From: a virus
Taxonomy: Duplodnaviria; Caudoviricetes
Direction: 5' to 3' (one strand)
Virus record (IMG/VR): IMGVR_UViG_3300013121_000022
Span: 32,001 to 96,000 of that record
Length of the DNA stretch: 64,000 bases
Below, one piece after another: positions 29,062 through 35,929 of the stretch (position 1 is its first letter; every line of letters begins with the position of its first letter). The notes under the pieces were generated by a model. The model saw only the letters and a list, made by a program, of their open reading frames with translations, was not told the origin of the DNA and made no database searches. A program made the position numbers and the translations under genes.

Positions 29062-30315
29062 TCAAGAACGAGTAATTTCCGCTATGTAGCGGAGAGTGAT
29101 TTGACTTTCATTATAAACGATAAACTCATTGTAGGCAAGAGAATATCCGGCCTCACCTTGAACTGAATGATAACCAGCGGGAGCACGTTGCAACGAAGAA
29201 TCGCTATGCTGGAGCTTTTTGATATTTCCTAATTTGACTTCACAGACAAACAGATAGTGTGGATTGCGTTTTGCGTTTCTGTGAAACGTGTATTGTGCTG
29301 ACTTAGTGGATTTGTCGGCGGTATAAATACCATTGCCAAACATCGCGCCAGACAAAGGAACATTCTGAGGACGTAACAGCAATCCACGACTGATAATACC
29401 TACCGAATTAGCATTACCAGACCCATGAAACAACTCGACAGGGTTATGAACGTCGCAACGATCATAGCGAGTGTTCAGGAATGGATTATTGATCTCGAAC
29501 ACGTTCCCTACCTTCAAATGGAAATGACGACCCTCTGATCCAATAATAAAATCGCGAATGCGCTTGGTCGTTTTTGAATCGGCCAACGTAATTTCTGCGC
29601 CCAATGCATCTTGTTGCTTGGTTTGGCCTTGATTGCCAAATCCGGCCTTAGCCTTGACTGCGTCTTCAATGCTTTGAAGGAAGTCGTACTCATCTTCAAG
29701 TTTTTGGGTTGAATTAACAGCCACATCTAAGGCGTCGTGAATGTGACGCGGAATCTGTAAATGACCTGAACCTGTTTGATGGGGAATTAGAGAGTAATAG
29801 CGCGACGAAGATCGAATGATCTCTTTTCTGTTGTTGGTCTTGATTGACTTTGACAGAGTCAATAGATGATCTCGTGCTTCGGCAATTCGATCTGGATGAA
29901 TATCGGTGAACTCACCCAACAAGACCTGCCGAATTGAATTATCAGCCTCATCAAAAATGTGATCCAAGAACATCGACACCGGATCGTTTGCTTTAGACTT
30001 GGAAATTACAACGGGAGTGGCCAAATTTGCGCGGGGAACTTTCGTGTATTTCCGAGACTTAGATCGGATATATGACTGGAATGCCTTTTCAGAAGTTGGA
30101 TACGTCCAATCAACAGCGGCGGATTTTGCCTCCACCGATCCAGTCTTTCCAAACTGAACTTTCTGAATCAGCGTTCCATTAGCGTCTCGCCACAGCTCTG
30201 CAAGAATTTCTTTGTTTGTTCCAAATGTACCTGCTTCAAGATCGCATTGAATCATGTATTCCGAATCGATGACTTTACTGTTATCAAGATTGTAAGCCTT
30301 CAAGTTTTTAGTCAT
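29062..30315 (-). CDS. PARP-like ADP-ribosyltransferase (WGR-like, regulatory and catalytic domains)
   Basis: SSRYYSLIPH regulatory helix; LFHGS, MFGNGIYTA..KSAQY and YNEFIVY give the H-Y-E triad. Confidence 0.9.
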   Translation of the reverse strand: MTKNLKAYNLDNSKVIDSEYMIQCDLEAGTFGTNKEILAELWRDANGTLIQKVQFGKTGSVEAKSAAVDWTYPTSEKAFQSYIRSKSRKYTKVPRANLATPVVISKSKANDPVSMFLDHIFDEADNSIRQVLLGEFTDIHPDRIAEARDHLLTLSKSIKTNNRKEIIRSSSRYYSLIPHQTGSGHLQIPRHIHDALDVAVNSTQKLEDEYDFLQSIEDAVKAKAGFGNQGQTKQQDALGAEITLADSKTTKRIRDFIIGSEGRHFHLKVGNVFEINNPFLNTRYDRCDVHNPVELFHGSGNANSVGIISRGLLLRPQNVPLSGAMFGNGIYTADKSTKSAQYTFHRNAKRNPHYLFVCEVKLGNIKKLQHSDSSLQRAPAGYHSVQGEAGYSLAYNEFIVYNESQITLRYIAEITRS

Positions 30316-30350
30316 GTCAATCTCCTATTCAAGTTTCAGGTAATTATATG

Positions 30351-30827
30351 TCAAAATGGATGGGCGTCAAGGTAGTTTTCAGGCGGAAACAAATCTCGTT
30401 CTCTTTCAAGAGTATAGACATTCCAACTCTCAGGAATCATTCTGACGATTCGCGTCCAATCTCCGCCTGCCAAACCACAGCCGATGCGGGGAATATGCAC
30501 ACTTGCACCAGCGTTTAGGGCAAATCTTTGGGTATGCCCTATGCACAGTTTTAGTGCCTCATAGTCCAATGGATGTTTAACTCCAAGTGTTTGAGCGCAC
30601 ATATTCACAACGCACCCAACCCGATAATCAATCGATACACCGACAATCTGAATCAGGCCGCGTATATGTTCGTGTAGTCCAAGATATGCCTGCCTGCTGG
30701 CCGGAAACTTTTTTGCAAGCGGAACAACAAAACCAGCACCCCATGCGTGTTTGTCGTTTACGATATGGGCAATCACAAATCGATCTGTTCCTACCGGATC
30801 AAGTGCTGAACCAATGTAGTGCTTCAT
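30351..30827 (-). CDS. Macrodomain protein (Poa1p/TARG1/DarG-like)
   Basis: IAHIVN..WGAGF..LAKKFP and IPRIGCGLAGGDW. Confidence 0.88.
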   Translation of the reverse strand: MKHYIGSALDPVGTDRFVIAHIVNDKHAWGAGFVVPLAKKFPASRQAYLGLHEHIRGLIQIVGVSIDYRVGCVVNMCAQTLGVKHPLDYEALKLCIGHTQRFALNAGASVHIPRIGCGLAGGDWTRIVRMIPESWNVYTLERERDLFPPENYLDAHPF

Positions 30828-31111
30828 ATTTTTTCTCCAATAATCTCAAGATCGCTAATTGCATACCATGCCGACTCGCCGGACTGATTGAGAAGTTCTA
30901 CATAAGTATGAGAATCTTCAAGGCCAATAACTCGATATACCTGTACGCGTGAGTAATTAGTTTTGATTACCACTTTTTTACTGGAAATCGTTGACGGGTG
31001 CGACAACCATCCACAAAGCCTATCGTACTTTCGTTCTCTTTGATGGTCGCGAAGTTTGGTTTGCGCTTTGAGCGCAAAAGACAAGCGATCAATTTTGTAG
31101 TTATCAGTCAT
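30824..31111 (-). CDS. Hypothetical protein
   Basis: AGGAG RBS before MTDNY; stop overlaps the macrodomain start. Confidence 0.5.
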   Translation of the reverse strand: MTDNYKIDRLSFALKAQTKLRDHQRERKYDRLCGWLSHPSTISSKKVVIKTNYSRVQVYRVIGLEDSHTYVELLNQSGESAWYAISDLEIIGEKI

Positions 31112-31334
31112 TGAATAAACTCCTATTTGCTTTACGAATGGGCTTGAATGCTTTTTGCTTCTTGCCAACATGACATCCATGTGGGCAAGTTAACGAGAAA
31201 CTGTATCCATGTTGATACCAATATTGCGAACATGGATACAGTCGTTTATAGCGCAAGGCCAGAATATCGGCCTGAGCGCGATCATAGCCTCTTGCCCGAT
31301 AATGCAAAAAAGCTTCTCCGCCTGTTATAGCCAT
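31104..31334 (-). CDS. Hypothetical protein
   Basis: Coupled short ORF with CPHGCH. Confidence 0.4.
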   Translation of the reverse strand: MAITGGEAFLHYRARGYDRAQADILALRYKRLYPCSQYWYQHGYSFSLTCPHGCHVGKKQKAFKPIRKANRSLFND

Positions 31335-31888
31335 CGGATACCTATTTTCGTTGTTACCGCATTCATTTTCTTGCCAGTAAAGATGTATTCACGAGCGGCA
31401 ACCAGTGCGGCGGCAACAGTCATATCAATTATCGGAACTCCGAGTTGATTGGTGCAAATAGCCTCCCCTTCAACGTCTTCGCCCATTGCATATCCATCAT
31501 TCCAAAGAACAGCTCCAGTTCCAAGACCAACACCAACATGCAAAACCTCTGGATAGGTGGCCGCAACGATTTTTCGACTGGCAAAGTTATCGAAACAATC
31601 AATCGAGAATTCACCTACTTGCCAATCGTCGTTCCAACCGGAATCGACGGGCATAAAAAATTCTTCTACACGGCGACGATATTTCAAATACGTCAACTGT
31701 GAAAATGCCTTGACCTTTGGCATACCAATTTGATTTGATTGATAAGCGCTTGTGCCAGTCAAAACATTTTCGCTGGACACCCTATCACTGTCAATTACCC
31801 TTATCGTTAAGTCTTCAATGTATCCAAGACCTAATCCGATTTTACTTCCCAATGCACCTACTCCAAAAATTGTAATTGCGTTGTTCAT
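31325..31888 (-). CDS. ThiF/E1-like adenylyltransferase
   Basis: IFGVGALGS, IDSDRV..EN, KV, IDCFDNFASR, and a C-terminal ICT cysteine. Confidence 0.85.
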   Translation of the reverse strand: MNNAITIFGVGALGSKIGLGLGYIEDLTIRVIDSDRVSSENVLTGTSAYQSNQIGMPKVKAFSQLTYLKYRRRVEEFFMPVDSGWNDDWQVGEFSIDCFDNFASRKIVAATYPEVLHVGVGLGTGAVLWNDGYAMGEDVEGEAICTNQLGVPIIDMTVAAALVAAREYIFTGKKMNAVTTKIGIRWL

Positions 31889-32139
31889 TTGAAAATTCTC
31901 TTCCATTCAGGATGTCTTTCTAGTTCAAGATTCGCTTGCCCGATTTCACTGGCAATAAAGTGTTGAACCGCCAAACATTCATCGTTTCCACAGTATAAAA
32001 GCACAATACCATGTATAACGCGAAAGTTGTTATCGGAATCAATGTTCAGCATGGTTTCGTAACCCGCTCGAACAATGATCGTTGGGTTGAGACGTAATAG
32101 CTCTACAATAGTGTGTACGTTGCTCAAATCATTCGCCAT
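31885..32139 (-). CDS. Hypothetical protein
   Basis: ATGA coupling to the ThiF gene. Confidence 0.5.
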   Translation of the reverse strand: MANDLSNVHTIVELLRLNPTIIVRAGYETMLNIDSDNNFRVIHGIVLLYCGNDECLAVQHFIASEIGQANLELERHPEWKRIFK

Positions 32140-32503
32140 AAGCCGCCTCTATCGGTTGACTACACTCATCGCACGTCAGGCATTTATCTTCGTAATTAAT
32201 CTCACAGCCAACGATCAAGAATTGATCGTCATCTCCACCAGCGCAACGCGAAATATTTTTATTGCAACATGCCGGACACAATATTCCATCGTCTTTTGTA
32301 ATGTAATACAAAGGATACCCGCCCGGAAAAGCGTAGGCATCGTATTCCAGTCCAATCGGCCTCCACTCGCTATAATGCAAGTCCCATTCCTTAGCGTCGG
32401 TCAGCGAGTCCCATTCTTGACCAATTTGTAAAATTTGATTTTTGAGAGACGCCTTTTCTCCAGCATACACAACAACGATATTGGGTTGAATAATTTTAGT
32501 CAT
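32129..32503 (-). CDS. Hypothetical zinc-binding protein
   Basis: AFPGGYPLYY..CPAC..CDEC. Confidence 0.55.
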   Translation of the reverse strand: MTKIIQPNIVVVYAGEKASLKNQILQIGQEWDSLTDAKEWDLHYSEWRPIGLEYDAYAFPGGYPLYYITKDDGILCPACCNKNISRCAGGDDDQFLIVGCEINYEDKCLTCDECSQPIEAAYGE

Positions 32504-33506
32504 CGTCATCCTCATAATCATTATGATCTTCATAATCGTAACCGTCAGCCGCATTCAATCGATCATCTGGCAAATTGATACCACCAGCATTGCGCCACAA
32601 TTCTTTTGGAATATCAAAGCGATGCAAGTCTCTCGCCTTATCAAAAGCGGCAACCGCCGAACTTAGATTGTGATATTGATCAAAATGACTAACACAAAAA
32701 CCAATCGATGTCACCCTCAGCGTCTTGGGATTGACCAGTGGAATTGTCCAATTTGCACCACGATAACGAAAGGTCACTTTGATTGCGTCTCGATTAACAT
32801 TAGACCAGTCAACCAAATCTGCGCCCATAAAGCCTAATTGATTGCGGATTTTTTCTTCCAGAGTCAGCGTCTTGGCATTTGCTTCGGCCAATGCATTCTT
32901 TCTAGACGCTTCTTTTTCTTCGGCCAAAATTCTTTCGCGTTCAAATCGAATGCGATCTGCCAAAATTCTAAATGGTTGCTGATAATGTCGTGGCGCATGT
33001 GTGATGTCAAAAGAATCGTTGCTCTGCTCGATCTGATACTGTAATTCTTGTGCCCATCGATCAACTGCCAAGCCATAGGCAATATCAACAAACAAAAAGA
33101 TACCGCCATACACTCCAACAACCACTCTATCTAGTGGCTGAATATTTTGATCGACCAAGTGAATGAGACGGGGTTCGCCCTCCCAATTCTTTTGACGAGC
33201 ATCTGAATAGTTATATGGCAAGCACAACCACGTTTGCTCCCCGACTGGACAAACGGCGATAACGGTAAATTTTTTAAGTCCGTCTAAGTAATATTGAATT
33301 TCCACAAAATTAGCTTCATCAACGATCTGCGCCGATCTACGATCTATTGGCTGAACATTAAACCATCCGCGTCTTGTATCGTTGACGTGAAAACGAAATG
33401 GAGTTCCGTCCTGAACAACCATGATGTCCACCGATCCAACACTTGGAATAGGCGCAACAAATGGTTCTGGTGTTTGATTGGCAATGCGACGAAAAGCGTT
33501 TAGCAT
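32496..33506 (-). CDS. Hypothetical protein, putative E2-like C-terminal domain
   Basis: C-terminal L.V.SIGFCVS with a Cys like the E2 G.ICL; lies between the Ro-vWA and ThiF genes. Confidence 0.5.
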   Translation of the reverse strand: MLNAFRRIANQTPEPFVAPIPSVGSVDIMVVQDGTPFRFHVNDTRRGWFNVQPIDRRSAQIVDEANFVEIQYYLDGLKKFTVIAVCPVGEQTWLCLPYNYSDARQKNWEGEPRLIHLVDQNIQPLDRVVVGVYGGIFLFVDIAYGLAVDRWAQELQYQIEQSNDSFDITHAPRHYQQPFRILADRIRFERERILAEEKEASRKNALAEANAKTLTLEEKIRNQLGFMGADLVDWSNVNRDAIKVTFRYRGANWTIPLVNPKTLRVTSIGFCVSHFDQYHNLSSAVAAFDKARDLHRFDIPKELWRNAGGINLPDDRLNAADGYDYEDHNDYEDDDD

Positions 33507-33569: not shown

Positions 33570-35042
33570 CTAGAAGCTGTACCCGACAATCTTGGGTAAT
33601 TCGGTGTCCGCAATGATGTCTGCAATATTGCGTGTCTTATCCCCCGCAAACCAACCAACAATTGCATCACCAATGTACGGATCGAACGGTGTAGTTGTCA
33701 AATCATAATGAACAACTCGAATACCGGCATCTTCAAGAACCTGAATGTCGATGCTTGGATTTCCATGCTCCGAAGATGGCAGCTGAATGATTGACAAATT
33801 CTGAACACCAAGCTCCCTAAAAGTCTTGTAAGCTTCGGTTGTGTTTGATTCGTGTAAATCTCCGATCCAAACGACATTGGTCAAATCAACACCCTTGTCG
33901 TGTGCCTTTCGCAGTGCTACGTGAACTAACGTGCCGCCCGTTGCGCGAAGTTTCGAGAAATCACGTTGAACCTGCGTCAACGATTGGCTTGAGAATTCCA
34001 TTTGCGTAGCTGATGTGTTGTACATAAAGACATTGACAGGTTCATCAGAGGCCGCAACAATGATCGGGACAGTTTCGCGTGTCGTTGCAATGCTAACTTC
34101 CTGCGAACCCGATTGATCACCGATAATGACAGGCGGATGTGCAATTCGTTGACCCTGTTGAACTGCCTTTTCAGTCGTCTGTTGAATGGCGGCATTGATT
34201 TCGGCGTCCGATCCCTGAGTGCTTTTACGCTTTTGCAGTGTCGCCACTGACTTGGTTGCACTGGCAATCAACTTCAAGTAATGCGCCTTGACCTCTGGAA
34301 TAGCAAACAATCCAGAGCGTTCAATCCACGAACGACTATTCAAAGCCTCTTGCGGCGACATGCGCGACAACAAAGCCAAACCAATAGCGGCATCAACCTT
34401 TGGCAAAATCGAAACGGCAATGCGATAAGGAATCTTATGCTTCATTACCATCTCGGCCTTTTTGACTGGATCGGTTTCTGCGACGATCATCTTCAAGGCC
34501 GCGATCTTTGATCCTTCCGGTGGAGTATCACTAAATAACAAAGCACTAACGTATTGATTGGTAGGGACATAAAAATACTTGATCAACCACGTCAAAGACT
34601 TGCGGTTTTGAATTGATACAGCATCCAATAGCGCGGGATTTGCCATTAGGCTATTGACCCAATCAATGGCAATTTTTCGCGCCTGTCGAGTAATTGGCCT
34701 GTCACTCTTACGAATGTAATCCAAGACGCGAATCAACTGAAACGCCTCCAGACCATCGATCTCTTTGTGAAAATCAATTTGATAAACACGCTGACCCAAA
34801 GCCAAAGCCCGACCTGCTTCCCGAAACTCTGGATACTCTGGATCGGCCTGCAACAAAGTCACAATTGCGGCCATGACCTGATCGTTGATCTTACTGGTTG
34901 AGGCGATGTGAACCAGAGCGCGACTGATGAAGTTTGGATCGTTGTTCAGTAAATCGGCGTATGTGCCAACTAGCGGAGCAAGATCGCGATGGGTAACACG
35001 AGTCATCGTCTGATAAATCTGGTTGTTATTTAGTTCTGTCAT
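33570..35042 (-). CDS. Ro60/TROVE-like helical RNA-binding protein with C-terminal vWA domain
   Basis: Helical N-terminus (DPNFISRAL, KIPYRIAVS, MSPQEALN); MIDAS DQSGS, GGT, IGD; adjacent to tRNA-like RNAs. Confidence 0.65.
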   Translation of the reverse strand: MTELNNNQIYQTMTRVTHRDLAPLVGTYADLLNNDPNFISRALVHIASTSKINDQVMAAIVTLLQADPEYPEFREAGRALALGQRVYQIDFHKEIDGLEAFQLIRVLDYIRKSDRPITRQARKIAIDWVNSLMANPALLDAVSIQNRKSLTWLIKYFYVPTNQYVSALLFSDTPPEGSKIAALKMIVAETDPVKKAEMVMKHKIPYRIAVSILPKVDAAIGLALLSRMSPQEALNSRSWIERSGLFAIPEVKAHYLKLIASATKSVATLQKRKSTQGSDAEINAAIQQTTEKAVQQGQRIAHPPVIIGDQSGSQEVSIATTRETVPIIVAASDEPVNVFMYNTSATQMEFSSQSLTQVQRDFSKLRATGGTLVHVALRKAHDKGVDLTNVVWIGDLHESNTTEAYKTFRELGVQNLSIIQLPSSEHGNPSIDIQVLEDAGIRVVHYDLTTTPFDPYIGDAIVGWFAGDKTRNIADIIADTELPKIVGYSF

Positions 35043-35071
35043 TGTTCTCTCTCTTTCTGGATTCAAGAATT

Positions 35072-35099
35072 AAAAAAGCCCGTAACATGTACGGGCTTT
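35072..35099 (-). terminator. Terminator of the ncRNA array
   Basis: AAAGCCCGTAC..TACGGGCTTTTTT on the - strand. Confidence 0.75.
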
Positions 35100-35112
35100 A
35101 ATTTAAGTGTCC

Positions 35113-35223
35113 AGCGTATAAAGTCTCTGAGGGTGTTACATAGTGGGACTTGAACCCACAACTAATTCTTAAAAGGAATCTGCTTTTCCGGTCAGCTTTA
35201 TGTGTCTCAGAATGGAATACGCT
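35113..35223 (-). ncRNA. tRNA-like RNA A (Lys-UUU-type anticodon arm, acceptor extended into a closed terminal helix; Y-RNA-like)
   Basis: T arm GTGGG-TTCAAGT-CCCAC, anticodon arm GATTC-CTTTTAA-GAATT, D-like GCT..AGC, closed by AGCGTAT/ATACGCT. Confidence 0.75.
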
Positions 35224-35226
35224 AGA

Positions 35227-35359
35227 AGGCGGCAGATGTAGGAATCGAACCCACTGTTCTTTTTTGGAAAAAAAGGATTTAACCATTGTGTGCGTTTATC
35301 AGAAATACGCTACCCGTTAGGAAACGTATACGTTGAAAAACATTCAACTTTTATCTGCC
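35227..35359 (-). ncRNA. tRNA-like RNA B (Gly-UCC-type anticodon arm, large D-arm insertion)
   Basis: Acceptor GGCAGAT/ATCTGCC, T arm GTGGG-TTCGATT-CCTAC, CTTTT-TTTCCAA-AAAAG, inserted ATACG..CGTAT helix. Confidence 0.7.
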
Positions 35360-35466
35360 GTATTAAGTTTGAAAAGTACGGTTGACCTATACACCGAAAG
35401 GTTATTACTACAAAACACTCGTCACATTTGAGCATCTTTCGATTACGCTTGACGAGTCTGATTTCT

Positions 35467-35592
35467 TGGGGCGAAGCTAGGAATCGAACCTAGAGCGTCT
35501 ATTTACAAGATAGATTGTGTGAGTGTGTCTGAAATACGCCGGGTTATTCCGGCGTATAAAGCGAAACACTTTTTTGTCCATTACACTTCGCC
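35467..35592 (-). ncRNA. tRNA-like RNA C (Thr-UGU-type anticodon arm, large D-arm insertion)
   Basis: Acceptor GGCGAAG/CTTCGCC, T arm CTAGG-TTCGATT-CCTAG, TCTAT-CTTGTAA-ATAGA, inserted ATACGCCGG..CCGGCGTAT helix. Confidence 0.75.
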
Positions 35593-35624
35593 ATGTGTCG
35601 GCGTTTTTACTGCCAACGTTTGCA

Positions 35625-35652
35625 ATTATATCCAGTTATTACTTCTTGTCAA
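35625..35652 (-). promoter_or_regulatory. Consensus promoter of the ncRNA array
   Basis: TTGACA-16-TATAAT. Confidence 0.75.
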
Positions 35653-35929
35653 TAGGCAAATTTTTCTCTGTAAAACTTTGACGTTCTGCCTTTTTTTGCT
35701 CGTACTCGGCAATCAACTGGTCGTAATTTGTCGCTAAAAACGCATAACCAAAAACATTCCGACCACAGATATTGGTTAGCGCCGATTGAAATCGATCAAA
35801 CGGAACTGCTAAATATTCTTGATACAACTGAAAGTCACAAATTTGTTCGTCTGTCCAAGTGCTCCAATCAGTTGTGTTGCCCATGTGTATTGCTTCTTGT
35901 TTAGTCAGCTGGTGTTTAAGGTTGAACAT
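35639..35929 (-). CDS. Hypothetical protein
   Basis: Coupled ORF in the - strand operon. Confidence 0.5.
   Translation of the reverse strand: MFNLKHQLTKQEAIHMGNTTDWSTWTDEQICDFQLYQEYLAVPFDRFQSALTNICGRNVFGYAFLATNYDQLIAEYEQKKAERQSFTEKNLPIDKK

What the first reader, a model, noticed from the sequence alone, without database searches (positions are those of the whole stretch)
35113..35652. Stand-alone transcription unit of three tRNA-mimic RNAs sharing one helix in permuted positions, next to a Ro/TROVE-like gene
Seen: a TTGACA-16-TATAAT promoter (35652-35625) and a terminator (35099-35072) bracket three elements. Each has a good T arm and a 7-nt anticodon loop, reading UGU (Thr), UCC (Gly) and UUU (Lys). 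All three contain a helix T-ATACG.../...CGTAT-T(T/C)C. In B and C it is inserted into the D arm; in A it closes the 5' and 3' ends below a shortened acceptor stem. None ends in a clean NCCA. Established: bacterial Y RNAs are tRNA mimics bound by Ro60 and encoded near it and rtcB. Inference: this is a new Y-RNA-like family in which the shared helix docks on the Ro-vWA protein and the U34 anticodon arms act as decoys or adaptors for host anticodon nucleases or RNA repair.
Basis: partly seen in the sequence, partly recalled or inferred. Interest (0 to 1): 0.9.

Follow-up and report, generated by a model that had tools for sequence, protein, structure and literature searches.

The report
Phage Ro60-like gene with tRNA-mimic RNAs
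A 172-kb phage makes three small tRNA-shaped RNAs that share one conserved stem "handle", just upstream of a very diverged relative of the RNA-binding ring protein Ro60, which looks like an undescribed branch of the known Ro60/Y-RNA particles.

Summary
A perfect sigma-70 promoter and an intrinsic terminator bracket three tRNA-like RNAs on the minus strand. All three carry the same helix (AUACG.../...CGUAU). It forms an internal hairpin in E1 and E2 and closes the two ends in E3.

The gene downstream has no Pfam, PHROG or PDB sequence match. Its predicted fold is a full-length Ro60 ring plus vWA domain with an intact MIDAS motif.

About half of the related phage loci I fetched (Ro-like proteins 22-45% identical) have the same layout. 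The RNAs share a two-helix "handle" followed by a conserved ACAAAC-like box. The handle covaries strongly in both wirings. A third wiring has a YrlA-like topology.

The cargo is tRNA-shaped, but its anticodons look unconstrained. The phage already has 46 normal tRNAs, including the same three anticodons.

My best reading (0.68) is that these are Y-RNA-like partners of the Ro60-like protein. Binding is inferred, not shown.

A 336-aa partner gene is also conserved downstream.

This scan has reported similar systems on other DNA. I found no paper describing this RNA family. I class it as a new variant of a known kind.

The parts
35625..35652 (-). Sigma-70-type promoter of the RNA array (TTGACA, 16 nt, TATAAT)
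   Evidence: It matches 12 of 12 positions and is the only promoter-like site in 34800-35900. I also read it directly.
35469..35592 (-). E1, a type-B RNA. It has a 7-bp acceptor stem (GGCGAAG/CUUCGCC) and no proper D arm. The handle lies at 35570-35515: P2 AGUGU/ACACU, a P1 hairpin at 35557-35534, then ACACAA. An anticodon-like arm (UGU) and a T arm follow.
   Evidence: Rfam tRNA gives 35.2 bits with a 68-nt insert. The fold has z = -4.83. The handle model R2, built from relatives only, gives its single window hit here, at 16.2 bits and E 0.31.
35230..35359 (-). E2, a type-B RNA. It has a 7-bp acceptor stem (GGCAGAU/AUCUGCC), a D-like hairpin and a P1 hairpin at 35329-35305. Then come the CGUAUUUC...ACACAA box (35309-35286), an anticodon-like arm (UCC), a T arm and a GCC-U tail.
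   Evidence: Rfam tRNA gives 20.6 bits, below the cut-off. The fold has z = -3.34. The acceptor and T arm were found by script. R2 does not detect it.
35111..35227 (-). E3, a type-A RNA. Closing helix P1 pairs 35225-35217 with 35119-35111. P2 is CUGAG/CUCAG. A 5-bp acceptor stem and a complete tRNA-like core (35203-35138, anticodon loop UUU) follow.
   Evidence: Rfam tRNA gives 45.2 bits over model positions 3-68. Model R1, built from relatives only, matches at full length with 56.9 bits and E 1.6e-14.
35075..35099 (-). Intrinsic terminator between the RNA array and the Ro-like gene
   Evidence: A 10-bp stem is followed by a T-run. Equivalent hairpins follow the arrays in relatives.
33570..35042 (-). 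Ro60-like protein, 490 aa: a HEAT-repeat ring plus a vWA domain with a MIDAS motif
   Evidence: It has no Pfam, PHROG or PDB sequence match. The AlphaFold2 model has pLDDT 81. The top Foldseek hits are all Ro60, including Thermus phage phiLo, with TM 0.55-0.62 over 520-557 columns. D309, S311, S313, T371 and D395 are invariant.
32496..33506 (-). Conserved partner protein, 336 aa, rich in beta strands, with an OB-like barrel at residues 76-144 and invariant Q105 and C271
   Evidence: Homologues lie downstream of the Ro-like gene in at least 20 loci. The alignment is, the model, and fold matches. It has no Pfam or NCBIfam match.

Best explanation
The three RNAs are Y-RNA-like partner RNAs of the phage's Ro60-like protein.

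Expression. One promoter drives E1, E2 and E3. The terminator stops most transcripts. Read-through would supply the Ro-like gene, whose ATG lies 32 nt downstream, and its partner gene. That would put the RNAs in excess over the proteins (inferred).

The handle. Each RNA carries the same module:
- helix P1, with an invariant ACG/CGU core;
- an asymmetric internal loop;
- helix P2;
- a single-stranded A/C-rich box (ACAAAC in relatives, ACACAA or ACAUAA here).

I propose that the handle is the docking site for the Ro-like ring, as the conserved stem is in Y RNAs (inferred).

The cargo. The handle is joined to a tRNA-shaped cargo in interchangeable ways:
- it closes the ends of a whole tRNA (E3);
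- it sits as a hairpin between the D region and the anticodon or T arm (E1, E2);
- in a relative, it closes a circularly permuted tRNA, as in YrlA.

The cargo would present a tRNA shape to tRNA-binding factors. These could be host nucleases, repair or modification enzymes, or the 336-aa partner. The particle would then act in RNA surveillance or counter-defence during infection (speculative).
For: (1) Ro60 fold. The downstream protein matches Ro60 structures over its full length, and its MIDAS residues are invariant.

(2) Conserved layout.
- Of about 24 related loci with upstream sequence, 13 carry tRNA-like genes with the handle directly upstream on the same strand. Protein identity across these loci is 22-45%.
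- The order is promoter, type B, type A, terminator, gene.

(3) Covariation of the handle.
- Type A: 88.2% of cells paired against 65.9% in shuffles and 31-45% when slid. The covariation score is 0.68 against 0.25, with 0 of 500 shuffles as high.
- Type B: 88.4% against 71.9% and 26-36%. The score is 0.50 against 0.19, with 0 of 500 shuffles as high.

(4) Independent model. A model built from relatives alone finds E3 at full length, with 56.9 bits.

(5) YrlA-like wiring. L011:3053-3200 folds as handle, T arm, acceptor hairpin closed by UUCG, D arm and anticodon-like arm.

(6) The cargo is not needed for decoding.
- The phage has 46 canonical tRNAs, including Thr-UGU, Gly-UCC and two Lys-UUU.
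- The 16 related type-A cargos show 14 different anticodons. Six have A34 and three read stop codons, against 1 of 46 with A34 and none reading stop codons in the canonical set (p = 5e-6).

(7) Precedent.
- Y RNAs lie upstream of Ro60 on the same strand, are co-transcribed with tRNAs and mimic tRNA (PMC4201824).
- Thermus phage phiLo Ro60 binds upstream Yrl RNAs (PMC12135203).
- Bas63 gp130 is Ro60-like and lies next to tRNA genes (PMC11482910).
Against: - No binding or expression data exist for this locus.
- The window's handles are divergent (CGUAUUYC...ACACAA instead of CGUGACC...ACAAAC). A linear profile built without them does not find them in the genome.
- The handle model finds E1 only weakly (E 0.31) and misses E2.
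- The YrlA model RF02553 does not match at the locus.
- The YrlA motif GNCGAAN0-1G is present only in E1 and is not conserved in relatives.
- About half of the related loci show no such RNAs within the 3.5 kb upstream that I fetched.
- The handle could instead bind the partner protein or a host factor.
Confidence: 0.68

Rival explanations
1. They are working tRNA genes with an unusual precursor structure. The handle would be a processing element, either a leader-trailer stem or an excised insert. RNase P, 3' trimming and CCA addition would release decoding tRNAs. The Ro-like protein would act at most as a folding or processing helper.
For: - Related type-A cargos score 50-70 bits as tRNA.
- Type-B RNAs have perfect, GC-rich 7-bp acceptor stems followed by a conserved ACC-U (E2: GCC-U).
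- M. smegmatis YrlA is cut by RNase P and receives CCA (PMC4201824).
Against: - I know of no bacterial mechanism that removes a 50-70-nt insert between the D and anticodon arms (my own knowledge).
- Many type-B relatives have no anticodon arm.
- E3 has only a 5-bp acceptor stem and no discriminator-CCA.
- Cargo anticodons include A34 forms and stop-codon readers, and almost all differ from each other.
- The phage already encodes the same three anticodons.
Confidence: 0.12
2. They are decoys or sponges for host tRNA-targeting defence nucleases, and the anticodon loops UGU, UCC and UUU are the active bait. The Ro-like ring would protect or recycle the cleaved RNAs.
For: - The anticodon loops keep U33 and a purine at position 37.
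- Rapid turnover of anticodons among relatives would fit an arms race.
- A Ro60-like phage protein counters the ppl defence in Bas63 (PMC11482910).
Against: - Many family members lack an anticodon arm.
- Several cargo anticodons (AUU, AUG, ACA, UUA, UCA) are, to my knowledge, not normal bacterial tRNA anticodons. Bacteria normally use G34/Q34 forms for those amino acids and have no stop-codon-reading tRNAs.
- E1-E3 anticodon arms are no closer to the phage's own same-anticodon tRNAs than to other tRNAs.
- The host is unknown, so I could not compare them with host tRNAs.
Confidence: 0.12
3. The handle is recognised by something other than the Ro-like protein. This could be the conserved 336-aa partner or a host factor such as RNase E, RNase III or PNPase. 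The co-location with the Ro-like gene would then reflect a shared pathway only.
For: - The partner gene is as tightly linked as the RNAs.
- The partner contains an OB-like barrel, a fold common in RNA-binding proteins.
Against: - Ro60 proteins in every studied system bind stem-containing RNAs encoded beside them (PMC4201824, PMC12135203).
- Nothing here points to a particular host factor.
Confidence: 0.08

Closest known systems
Bacterial and mycobacteriophage YrlA Y RNAs with Ro60/Rsr (Rfam RF02553; Chen et al. 2014, PMC4201824)
   Same: - The small RNAs lie directly upstream of the Ro60 gene on the same strand and can be co-transcribed with tRNAs.
- They have a terminal stem plus a tRNA-like domain with a T arm.
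- One relative (L011:3053-3200) has the YrlA order T arm, closed acceptor hairpin, D arm.
   Different: - RF02553 gives no match at the locus.
- The conserved GNCGAAN0-1G box is replaced by a P1(ACG/CGU)-loop-P2-ACAAAC handle.
- The handle is used in at least three wirings, including whole tRNAs and tRNAs with free acceptor ends.
- The protein lacks a detectable TROVE profile match.
- There is no rtcB/rtcA neighbour.
Thermus phage phiLo Ro60 with Yrl1/Yrl2 (PDB 9KOP, 9L5Y; PMC12135203)
   Same: - It is a phage-encoded Ro60 ring with partner RNAs encoded just upstream.
- It is among the best structural matches to the window's protein.
   Different: - Yrl1 and Yrl2 are stem-bulge-stem RNAs with a CGAA motif and no tRNA cargo.
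- Sequence identity to the window's protein is about 13-14%.
Bas63 gp130, a Ro60-like protein of a Felix O1-type coliphage that counters the ppl defence (PMC11482910)
   Same: - It is a Ro60-like phage protein recognised by fold.
- It lies next to tRNA genes, some of which the authors suspect are Y RNAs.
   Different: - I did not establish homology. tblastn of the window's protein against GenBank phages found only two distant uncultured records.
- The gene order differs: gp130 lies upstream of the tRNAs.
- Gp130 expressed from a plasmid or inserted into T7 restored T7 plaquing on the ppl strain, with no Bas63 RNA reported as co-expressed.
Deinococcus radiodurans Yrn1/Yrn2 with Rsr and PNPase (RYPER)
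   Same: - The Ro-binding stem is formed by the 5' and 3' ends.
- The RNAs have a T arm and an anticodon-like arm.
- They are made as a polycistronic precursor with a tRNA (PMC4201824).
   Different: - The Deinococcus RNAs keep the metazoan-type Ro-binding helix.
- No PNPase link is shown here.
- The conserved protein neighbour is a 336-aa protein of no recognised family.

Membership tests
Ro60 / TROVE proteins | HEAT-repeat ring followed by a vWA domain (fold) | tested here: met
   The AlphaFold2 model has pLDDT 81. Every Foldseek hit through rank 13 is a Ro60 structure, with TM 0.55-0.62 and 520-557 aligned columns.
Ro60 / TROVE proteins | Match to the Pfam TROVE profile (PF05731) | tested here: not met
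   The window protein has no Pfam hit. Among 40 family members, 21 match VWA_2 and 4 match vWA_Ro60, but none matches TROVE.
Ro60 / TROVE proteins | MIDAS motif DxSxS...T...D in the vWA domain | tested here: met
   D309, S311, S313, T371 and D395 are invariant in 8- and 40-sequence alignments.
Ro60 / TROVE proteins | Binds a stem-containing small RNA | not testable with these tools
   This needs EMSA, CLIP or a solved structure.
YrlA Y RNA (RF02553) | Covariance-model match at or above the gathering score | tested here: not met
   RF02553 gives no hit at genome 67.1-67.6 kb. The weak hits elsewhere fall at tandem tRNA junctions. No Y-RNA family appears at E up to 10.
YrlA Y RNA (RF02553) | Encoded within about 4 kb of the Ro60 gene, on the same strand | tested here: met
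   The RNAs lie at 35111-35592 (-) and the gene at 35042-33570 (-). The same holds in 13 loci.
YrlA Y RNA (RF02553) | GNCGAAN0-1G motif near the 5' end | tested here: not met
   Only E1 begins with GGCGAAG. E2, E3 and the related type-B RNAs do not carry the motif.
YrlA Y RNA (RF02553) | tRNA-like domain with T and D arms | tested here: met
   All three have canonical T arms (UUCGAUU or UUCAAGU loops). E3 has a D arm, E2 has a D-like hairpin and E1 has none.
Functional tRNA | Detected as tRNA: Rfam at or above 29 bits over the full model, and called by ARAGORN | tested here: not met
   ARAGORN finds no tRNA in the window. E1 reaches 35.2 bits only by skipping a 68-nt insert. E2 scores 20.6 bits. 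E3 scores 45.2 bits but only over model positions 3-68.
Functional tRNA | 7-bp acceptor stem with discriminator and a CCA end (or an end to which CCA can be added) | tested here: inconclusive
   E1 and E2 have 7-bp stems, with tails CCAA and GCCU. E3 has a 5-bp stem buried in the closing stem.
Functional tRNA | Fills a decoding need | tested here: not met
   Canonical tRNAs for UGU, UCC and UUU (two copies) are present in the same genome.
ARPP domain (Iyer et al. 2022, PMC9503650), for the 336-aa partner | Beta-meander repeats with an inserted beta-barrel, and an absolutely conserved Cys and Gln | tested here: inconclusive
   The model is beta-rich with an OB-like barrel at residues 76-144. 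Q105 and C271 are invariant. No Pfam or NCBIfam profile matched.

The most novel reading that the evidence does not exclude
The handle is a universal adaptor. A diverged Ro60 ring and its always-linked 336-aa partner load interchangeable tRNA-shaped cargos. Phages swap these cargos rapidly to capture, neutralise or repair the damage done by host tRNA-targeting defences. This would be an RNA-guided counter-defence particle whose specificity lies in the cargo.
Probability: 0.2. Interest if true: 0.85.

Novelty: new variant of a known kind. Interest (0 to 1): 0.6.

Why it matters
Ro60/Y-RNA particles occur from bacteria to humans, but what the tRNA-like part of bacterial Y RNAs does is still unknown.

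This family offers a natural experiment:
- One conserved handle is attached to whole, permuted or partial tRNAs.
- It sits beside a Ro60 relative so diverged that the profile searches run here (Pfam, PHROGs, PDB sequences) do not recognise it.
- That protein family has hundreds of members in metagenomes: 432 cluster representatives at E < 1e-30.

If the handle does bind the ring, the family gives:
- a defined minimal binding module;
- many cargo variants for testing what tRNA mimicry is for;
- a possible link between Ro60-like proteins and phage counter-defence.

Tried and rejected
- blastn of the RNA region against GenBank phages found nothing.
- tblastn of the Ro-like protein found only two distant uncultured records.
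- The search for related loci in viral contigs gave no locus with the single protein and one locus with the small alignment. Two wider alignments were too diverse to use.
- A linear nhmmer profile of the 3' half of the handle, built without the window's copies, did not recover them from the 172-kb genome. With them included, the three top hits were these copies, but that test is circular.
- The word-based protein search found no relatives of the 336-aa partner. I found them only by scanning the fetched loci.
- I considered an archaeal-type intron or a split or permuted tRNA gene and rejected it. The promoter and terminator are bacterial in type, and I saw no bulge-helix-bulge motif.
- I looked at the resemblance to Dictyostelium Class I RNAs, a lead from earlier notes. 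Only CUUACA is shared with my recollection of their 11-nt box. The paper's text confirms just five positions of that box, and the handle lacks three of them. I treat it as too weak to use.
- Foldseek and VIA-align of the partner gave only generic OB-barrel matches, at Z about 8.

Full report
**Setting**

The window is bases 32001-96000 of a complete 172.5-kb phage genome with terminal repeats. Its 46 ordinary tRNA genes lie far away, at 114-165 kb. The finding lies in a run of minus-strand genes that also includes a primase, a helicase, a PD-(D/E)XK nuclease, a ThiF-like protein and a PARP.

**The observation**

Read on the minus strand, TTGACA-16-TATAAT lies at 35652-35625 and matches 12 of 12 positions. 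A 10-bp hairpin with a T-run lies at 35099-35075. These are the only promoter-like and terminator-like sites in 34800-35900.

Three tRNA-like elements lie between them.

| Element | Coordinates (-) | Rfam tRNA score | Anticodon loop | Notes |
|---|---|---|---|---|
| E1 | 35592-35469 | 35.2 bits, skipping a 68-nt insert | CUUGUAA (UGU) | 7-bp acceptor stem GGCGAAG/CUUCGCC |
| E2 | 35359-35230 | 20.6 bits, below cut-off | UUUCCAA (UCC) | 7-bp acceptor stem, canonical T arm |
| E3 | core 35203-35138 | 45.2 bits, model positions 3-68 only | CUUUUAA (UUU) | acceptor stem only 5 bp |

ARAGORN calls none of the three.

The shared helix is present in all three:
- E1: a hairpin, AUACGCCGG/CCGGCGUAU.
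- E2: a hairpin, AUACGUU/AGCGUAU.
- E3: CUAGCGUAU near the 5' end pairs with AUACGCUGG near the 3' end and encloses the tRNA core.

In each element the 3' strand of the helix starts a 24-nt stretch, CGUAUUYC...ACA(C/U)AA. Single-sequence folds give z-scores of -4.8, -3.3 and -2.7.

**The neighbouring protein**

The 490-aa ORF (35042-33570) has no Pfam, PHROG or PDB sequence match. An AlphaFold2 model built on an 8-sequence alignment has pLDDT 81.

Every Foldseek hit through rank 13 is a Ro60 structure, aligned over the full length with TM 0.55-0.62. They include the Ro60 of Thermus phage phiLo, D. radiodurans Rsr, and frog and human Ro60. The MIDAS residues D309, S311, S313, T371 and D395 are invariant.

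A profile search found 432 cluster representatives at E < 1e-30. Of 40 family members scanned against Pfam, 21 match VWA_2, 4 match vWA_Ro60 and none matches TROVE. This is therefore a large Ro60-like lineage that the TROVE profile does not recognise.

**Relatives**

I fetched 29 loci that encode relatives 22-45% identical. Thirteen distinct loci carry tRNA or tRNA-like genes immediately upstream on the same strand, usually followed by a terminator. These are L001, L002, L004, L005, L006, L008, L011, L016, L018/L019, L024, L025, L028/L029 and the window.

These RNAs share a module that I call the handle. Its parts are:
- a 5' strand ending ...YUU(A/G)UACGnn;
- a 3' strand nnCGUG(A/G)CC;
- about 13 nt;
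- the box (U/C)(U/A)ACAAAC.

The 3' half is 24-26 nt long throughout.

The partner strand lies in one of two places. It is either 7-17 nt upstream, forming a hairpin, or 115-127 nt downstream, enclosing a tRNA of about 72 nt.

**Covariation**

For 17 type-A RNAs, in which the handle closes the ends, RNAalifold predicts two helices. P1 has 9 bp with an invariant C-G, G-C, U-A core. P2 has 5 bp.

| Set | Cells paired | In shuffles | When slid | Covariation score | Shuffles as high |
|---|---|---|---|---|---|
| Type A, 17 RNAs | 88.2% | 65.9% | 31-45% | 0.68 vs 0.25 | 0 of 500 |
| Type B, 19 handles | 88.4% | 71.9% | 26-36% | 0.50 vs 0.19 | 0 of 500 |

The pair flanking the P1 core varies between U-G, C-G and U-A. 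The window uses U-A.

**Are the window's copies members?**

- A covariance model of type A built only from relatives matches window 35108-35228 (-) over its full length, with 56.9 bits and E 1.6e-14. P1 is correctly aligned.
- A handle-hairpin model built only from relatives gives a single hit in the whole 64-kb window. It falls on E1 but is weak, at 16.2 bits and E 0.31. E2 is missed.
- A linear profile built without the window's copies fails to find them.

So E3 is a clear member. E1 and E2 are placed mainly by architecture:
- the same order, type B then type A;
- the same NCC-U junction running straight into the next unit's strand;
- the same 24-nt spacing;
- P2 readable as AGUGU/ACACU in E1.

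**Wirings**

- Type A: the handle joins the acceptor stem of a complete tRNA.
- Type B: the ends are a perfect, GC-rich 7-bp acceptor stem. The handle hairpin follows the D arm and precedes either an anticodon-like arm or the T arm directly. In the second case it replaces the anticodon arm.
- Type C: L011:3053-3200 folds as handle, T arm, acceptor hairpin closed by UUCG, D arm and anticodon-like arm. This is a circularly permuted tRNA with a YrlA-like order.
- Mini versions carry only a T arm or other hairpins.

**Are they tRNAs?**

Probably not working decoders.
- The phage already has Thr-UGU, Gly-UCC and two Lys-UUU tRNAs.
- E1-E3 are not close copies of those tRNAs.
- Among 16 type-A cargos there are 14 different anticodons. 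Six have A34 (AUG twice, AAG, AGU, AUU, AAC) and three read stop codons (UUA twice, UCA). In the phage's canonical set, 1 of 46 has A34 and none reads a stop codon (p = 5e-6).
- The loops still keep U33 and a purine at position 37, so the tRNA shape is preserved while the anticodon drifts or is diversified.

The conserved ACC-U tails suggest that type-B RNAs may be end-processed like tRNAs, as M. smegmatis YrlA is (PMC4201824).

**Comparison with known Y RNAs**

- YrlA RNAs lie within 4 kb of Ro60 on the same strand, mimic tRNA and carry GNCGAAN0-1G near the 5' end (PMC4201824).
- Rfam YrlA (RF02553) does not match at this locus.
- The GNCGAA motif is seen only in E1 (GGCGAAG), so I treat it as chance.
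- Thermus phage phiLo Ro60 binds two upstream Yrl RNAs (PMC12135203).
- Bas63 gp130 is Ro60-like by fold, lies beside tRNA genes and counters the ppl defence (PMC11482910). I did not establish homology to gp130.

**The partner gene**

The 336-aa ORF just downstream (33506-32496) has homologues downstream of the Ro-like gene in at least 20 loci.
- Its model is beta-rich, with an OB-like barrel at residues 76-144. The best fold match has Z 8.0, rmsd 2.3 A and 62 aligned residues, which is a middling score.
- Q105 and C271 are invariant.
- This fits the published description of the ARPP domain (PMC9503650), but no profile matched.

A complex prediction for the Ro-like protein and the partner gave weak support.
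- The score was 0.60 and the best control scored 0.00.
- The pass mark was reached by 58 of 80 solved complexes and 2 of 110 mismatched pairs.
- Scores of 0.60 or under came from only 7 of those 80 solved complexes, and from both mismatched pairs that passed.
- The runs agree in at least 76% of contacts, and the partner's pLDDT is at least 73.

**Mechanism**

Shown:
- the transcription-unit signals;
- the folds;
- conservation and covariation of the handle;
- linkage to the Ro-like and partner genes.

Inferred:
- The handle docks on the Ro-like ring.
- Terminator read-through sets an excess of RNA over protein.
- The tRNA-shaped cargo engages tRNA-binding factors.

Speculative:
- a role in counter-defence.

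**Earlier notes of this scan**

Follow-up agents reported similar systems on other genomes: a diverged Ro60-like protein, an ARPP-like partner, and RNAs that share a handle and carry tRNA look-alikes in several wirings. They also found no paper describing them. None of those reports shares sequence with this protein. My conclusions rest on the tests above.

**Verdict**

This is a new variant of the Ro60/Y-RNA kind. Interest is 0.6.

Noticed in passing
window 29062-31906 (-): A PARP catalytic plus regulatory domain protein (417 aa) and a minimal ThiF-like protein (193 aa) lie just downstream. A ThiF-like gene also recurs a few genes after the Ro-like gene in L001, L002, L003 and the contigs that carry P0005.
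   Followed up: partly
window 32496-33506 (-): The 336-aa partner of the Ro-like gene is conserved in at least 20 loci. It has invariant Q105 and C271 and an OB-like barrel. It may be ARPP-like, but no profile matches it.
   Followed up: partly
L001:2430-4800: A long array of at least eight handle-bearing units lies behind one TTGACA/TATAAT promoter. The units are often separated by UUAACAAC-like spacers, which may be processing sites.
   Followed up: no
L024:2323-2460: A type-A RNA whose closing helix (AUCAUCACC/GGUGAUGU) lacks the otherwise invariant ACG/CGU core but keeps the spacing and the ACAAAC box.
   Followed up: no
L010:2067, L012:2474, L013:2973, L014:1917: Four loci that lack the tRNA-like array share a conserved GGGCGU-AC-UUUUCGUCGAUACA-AA stretch about 0.5-1.6 kb upstream of the Ro-like gene. 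Its nature is unknown.
   Followed up: no
L002:1016-1088: An apparently ordinary tRNA-Met (CAU, 62.6 bits) sits inside the array between two handle-bearing units, so arrays can mix normal tRNAs with mimics.
   Followed up: no
window 35042-35075 (-): Only 32 nt separate the terminator from the ATG of the Ro-like gene, and no other promoter-like site was found in 34800-35900. The gene is probably expressed by terminator read-through.
   Followed up: no
handle consensus, relatives: The box after P2 often reads ACUUACAAAC. It shares CUUACA with my recollection of the 11-nt motif of Dictyostelium Class I RNAs, which likewise follows the 5' strand of an end-closing stem (PMC7919456). The overlap is short and may be chance.
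   Followed up: partly
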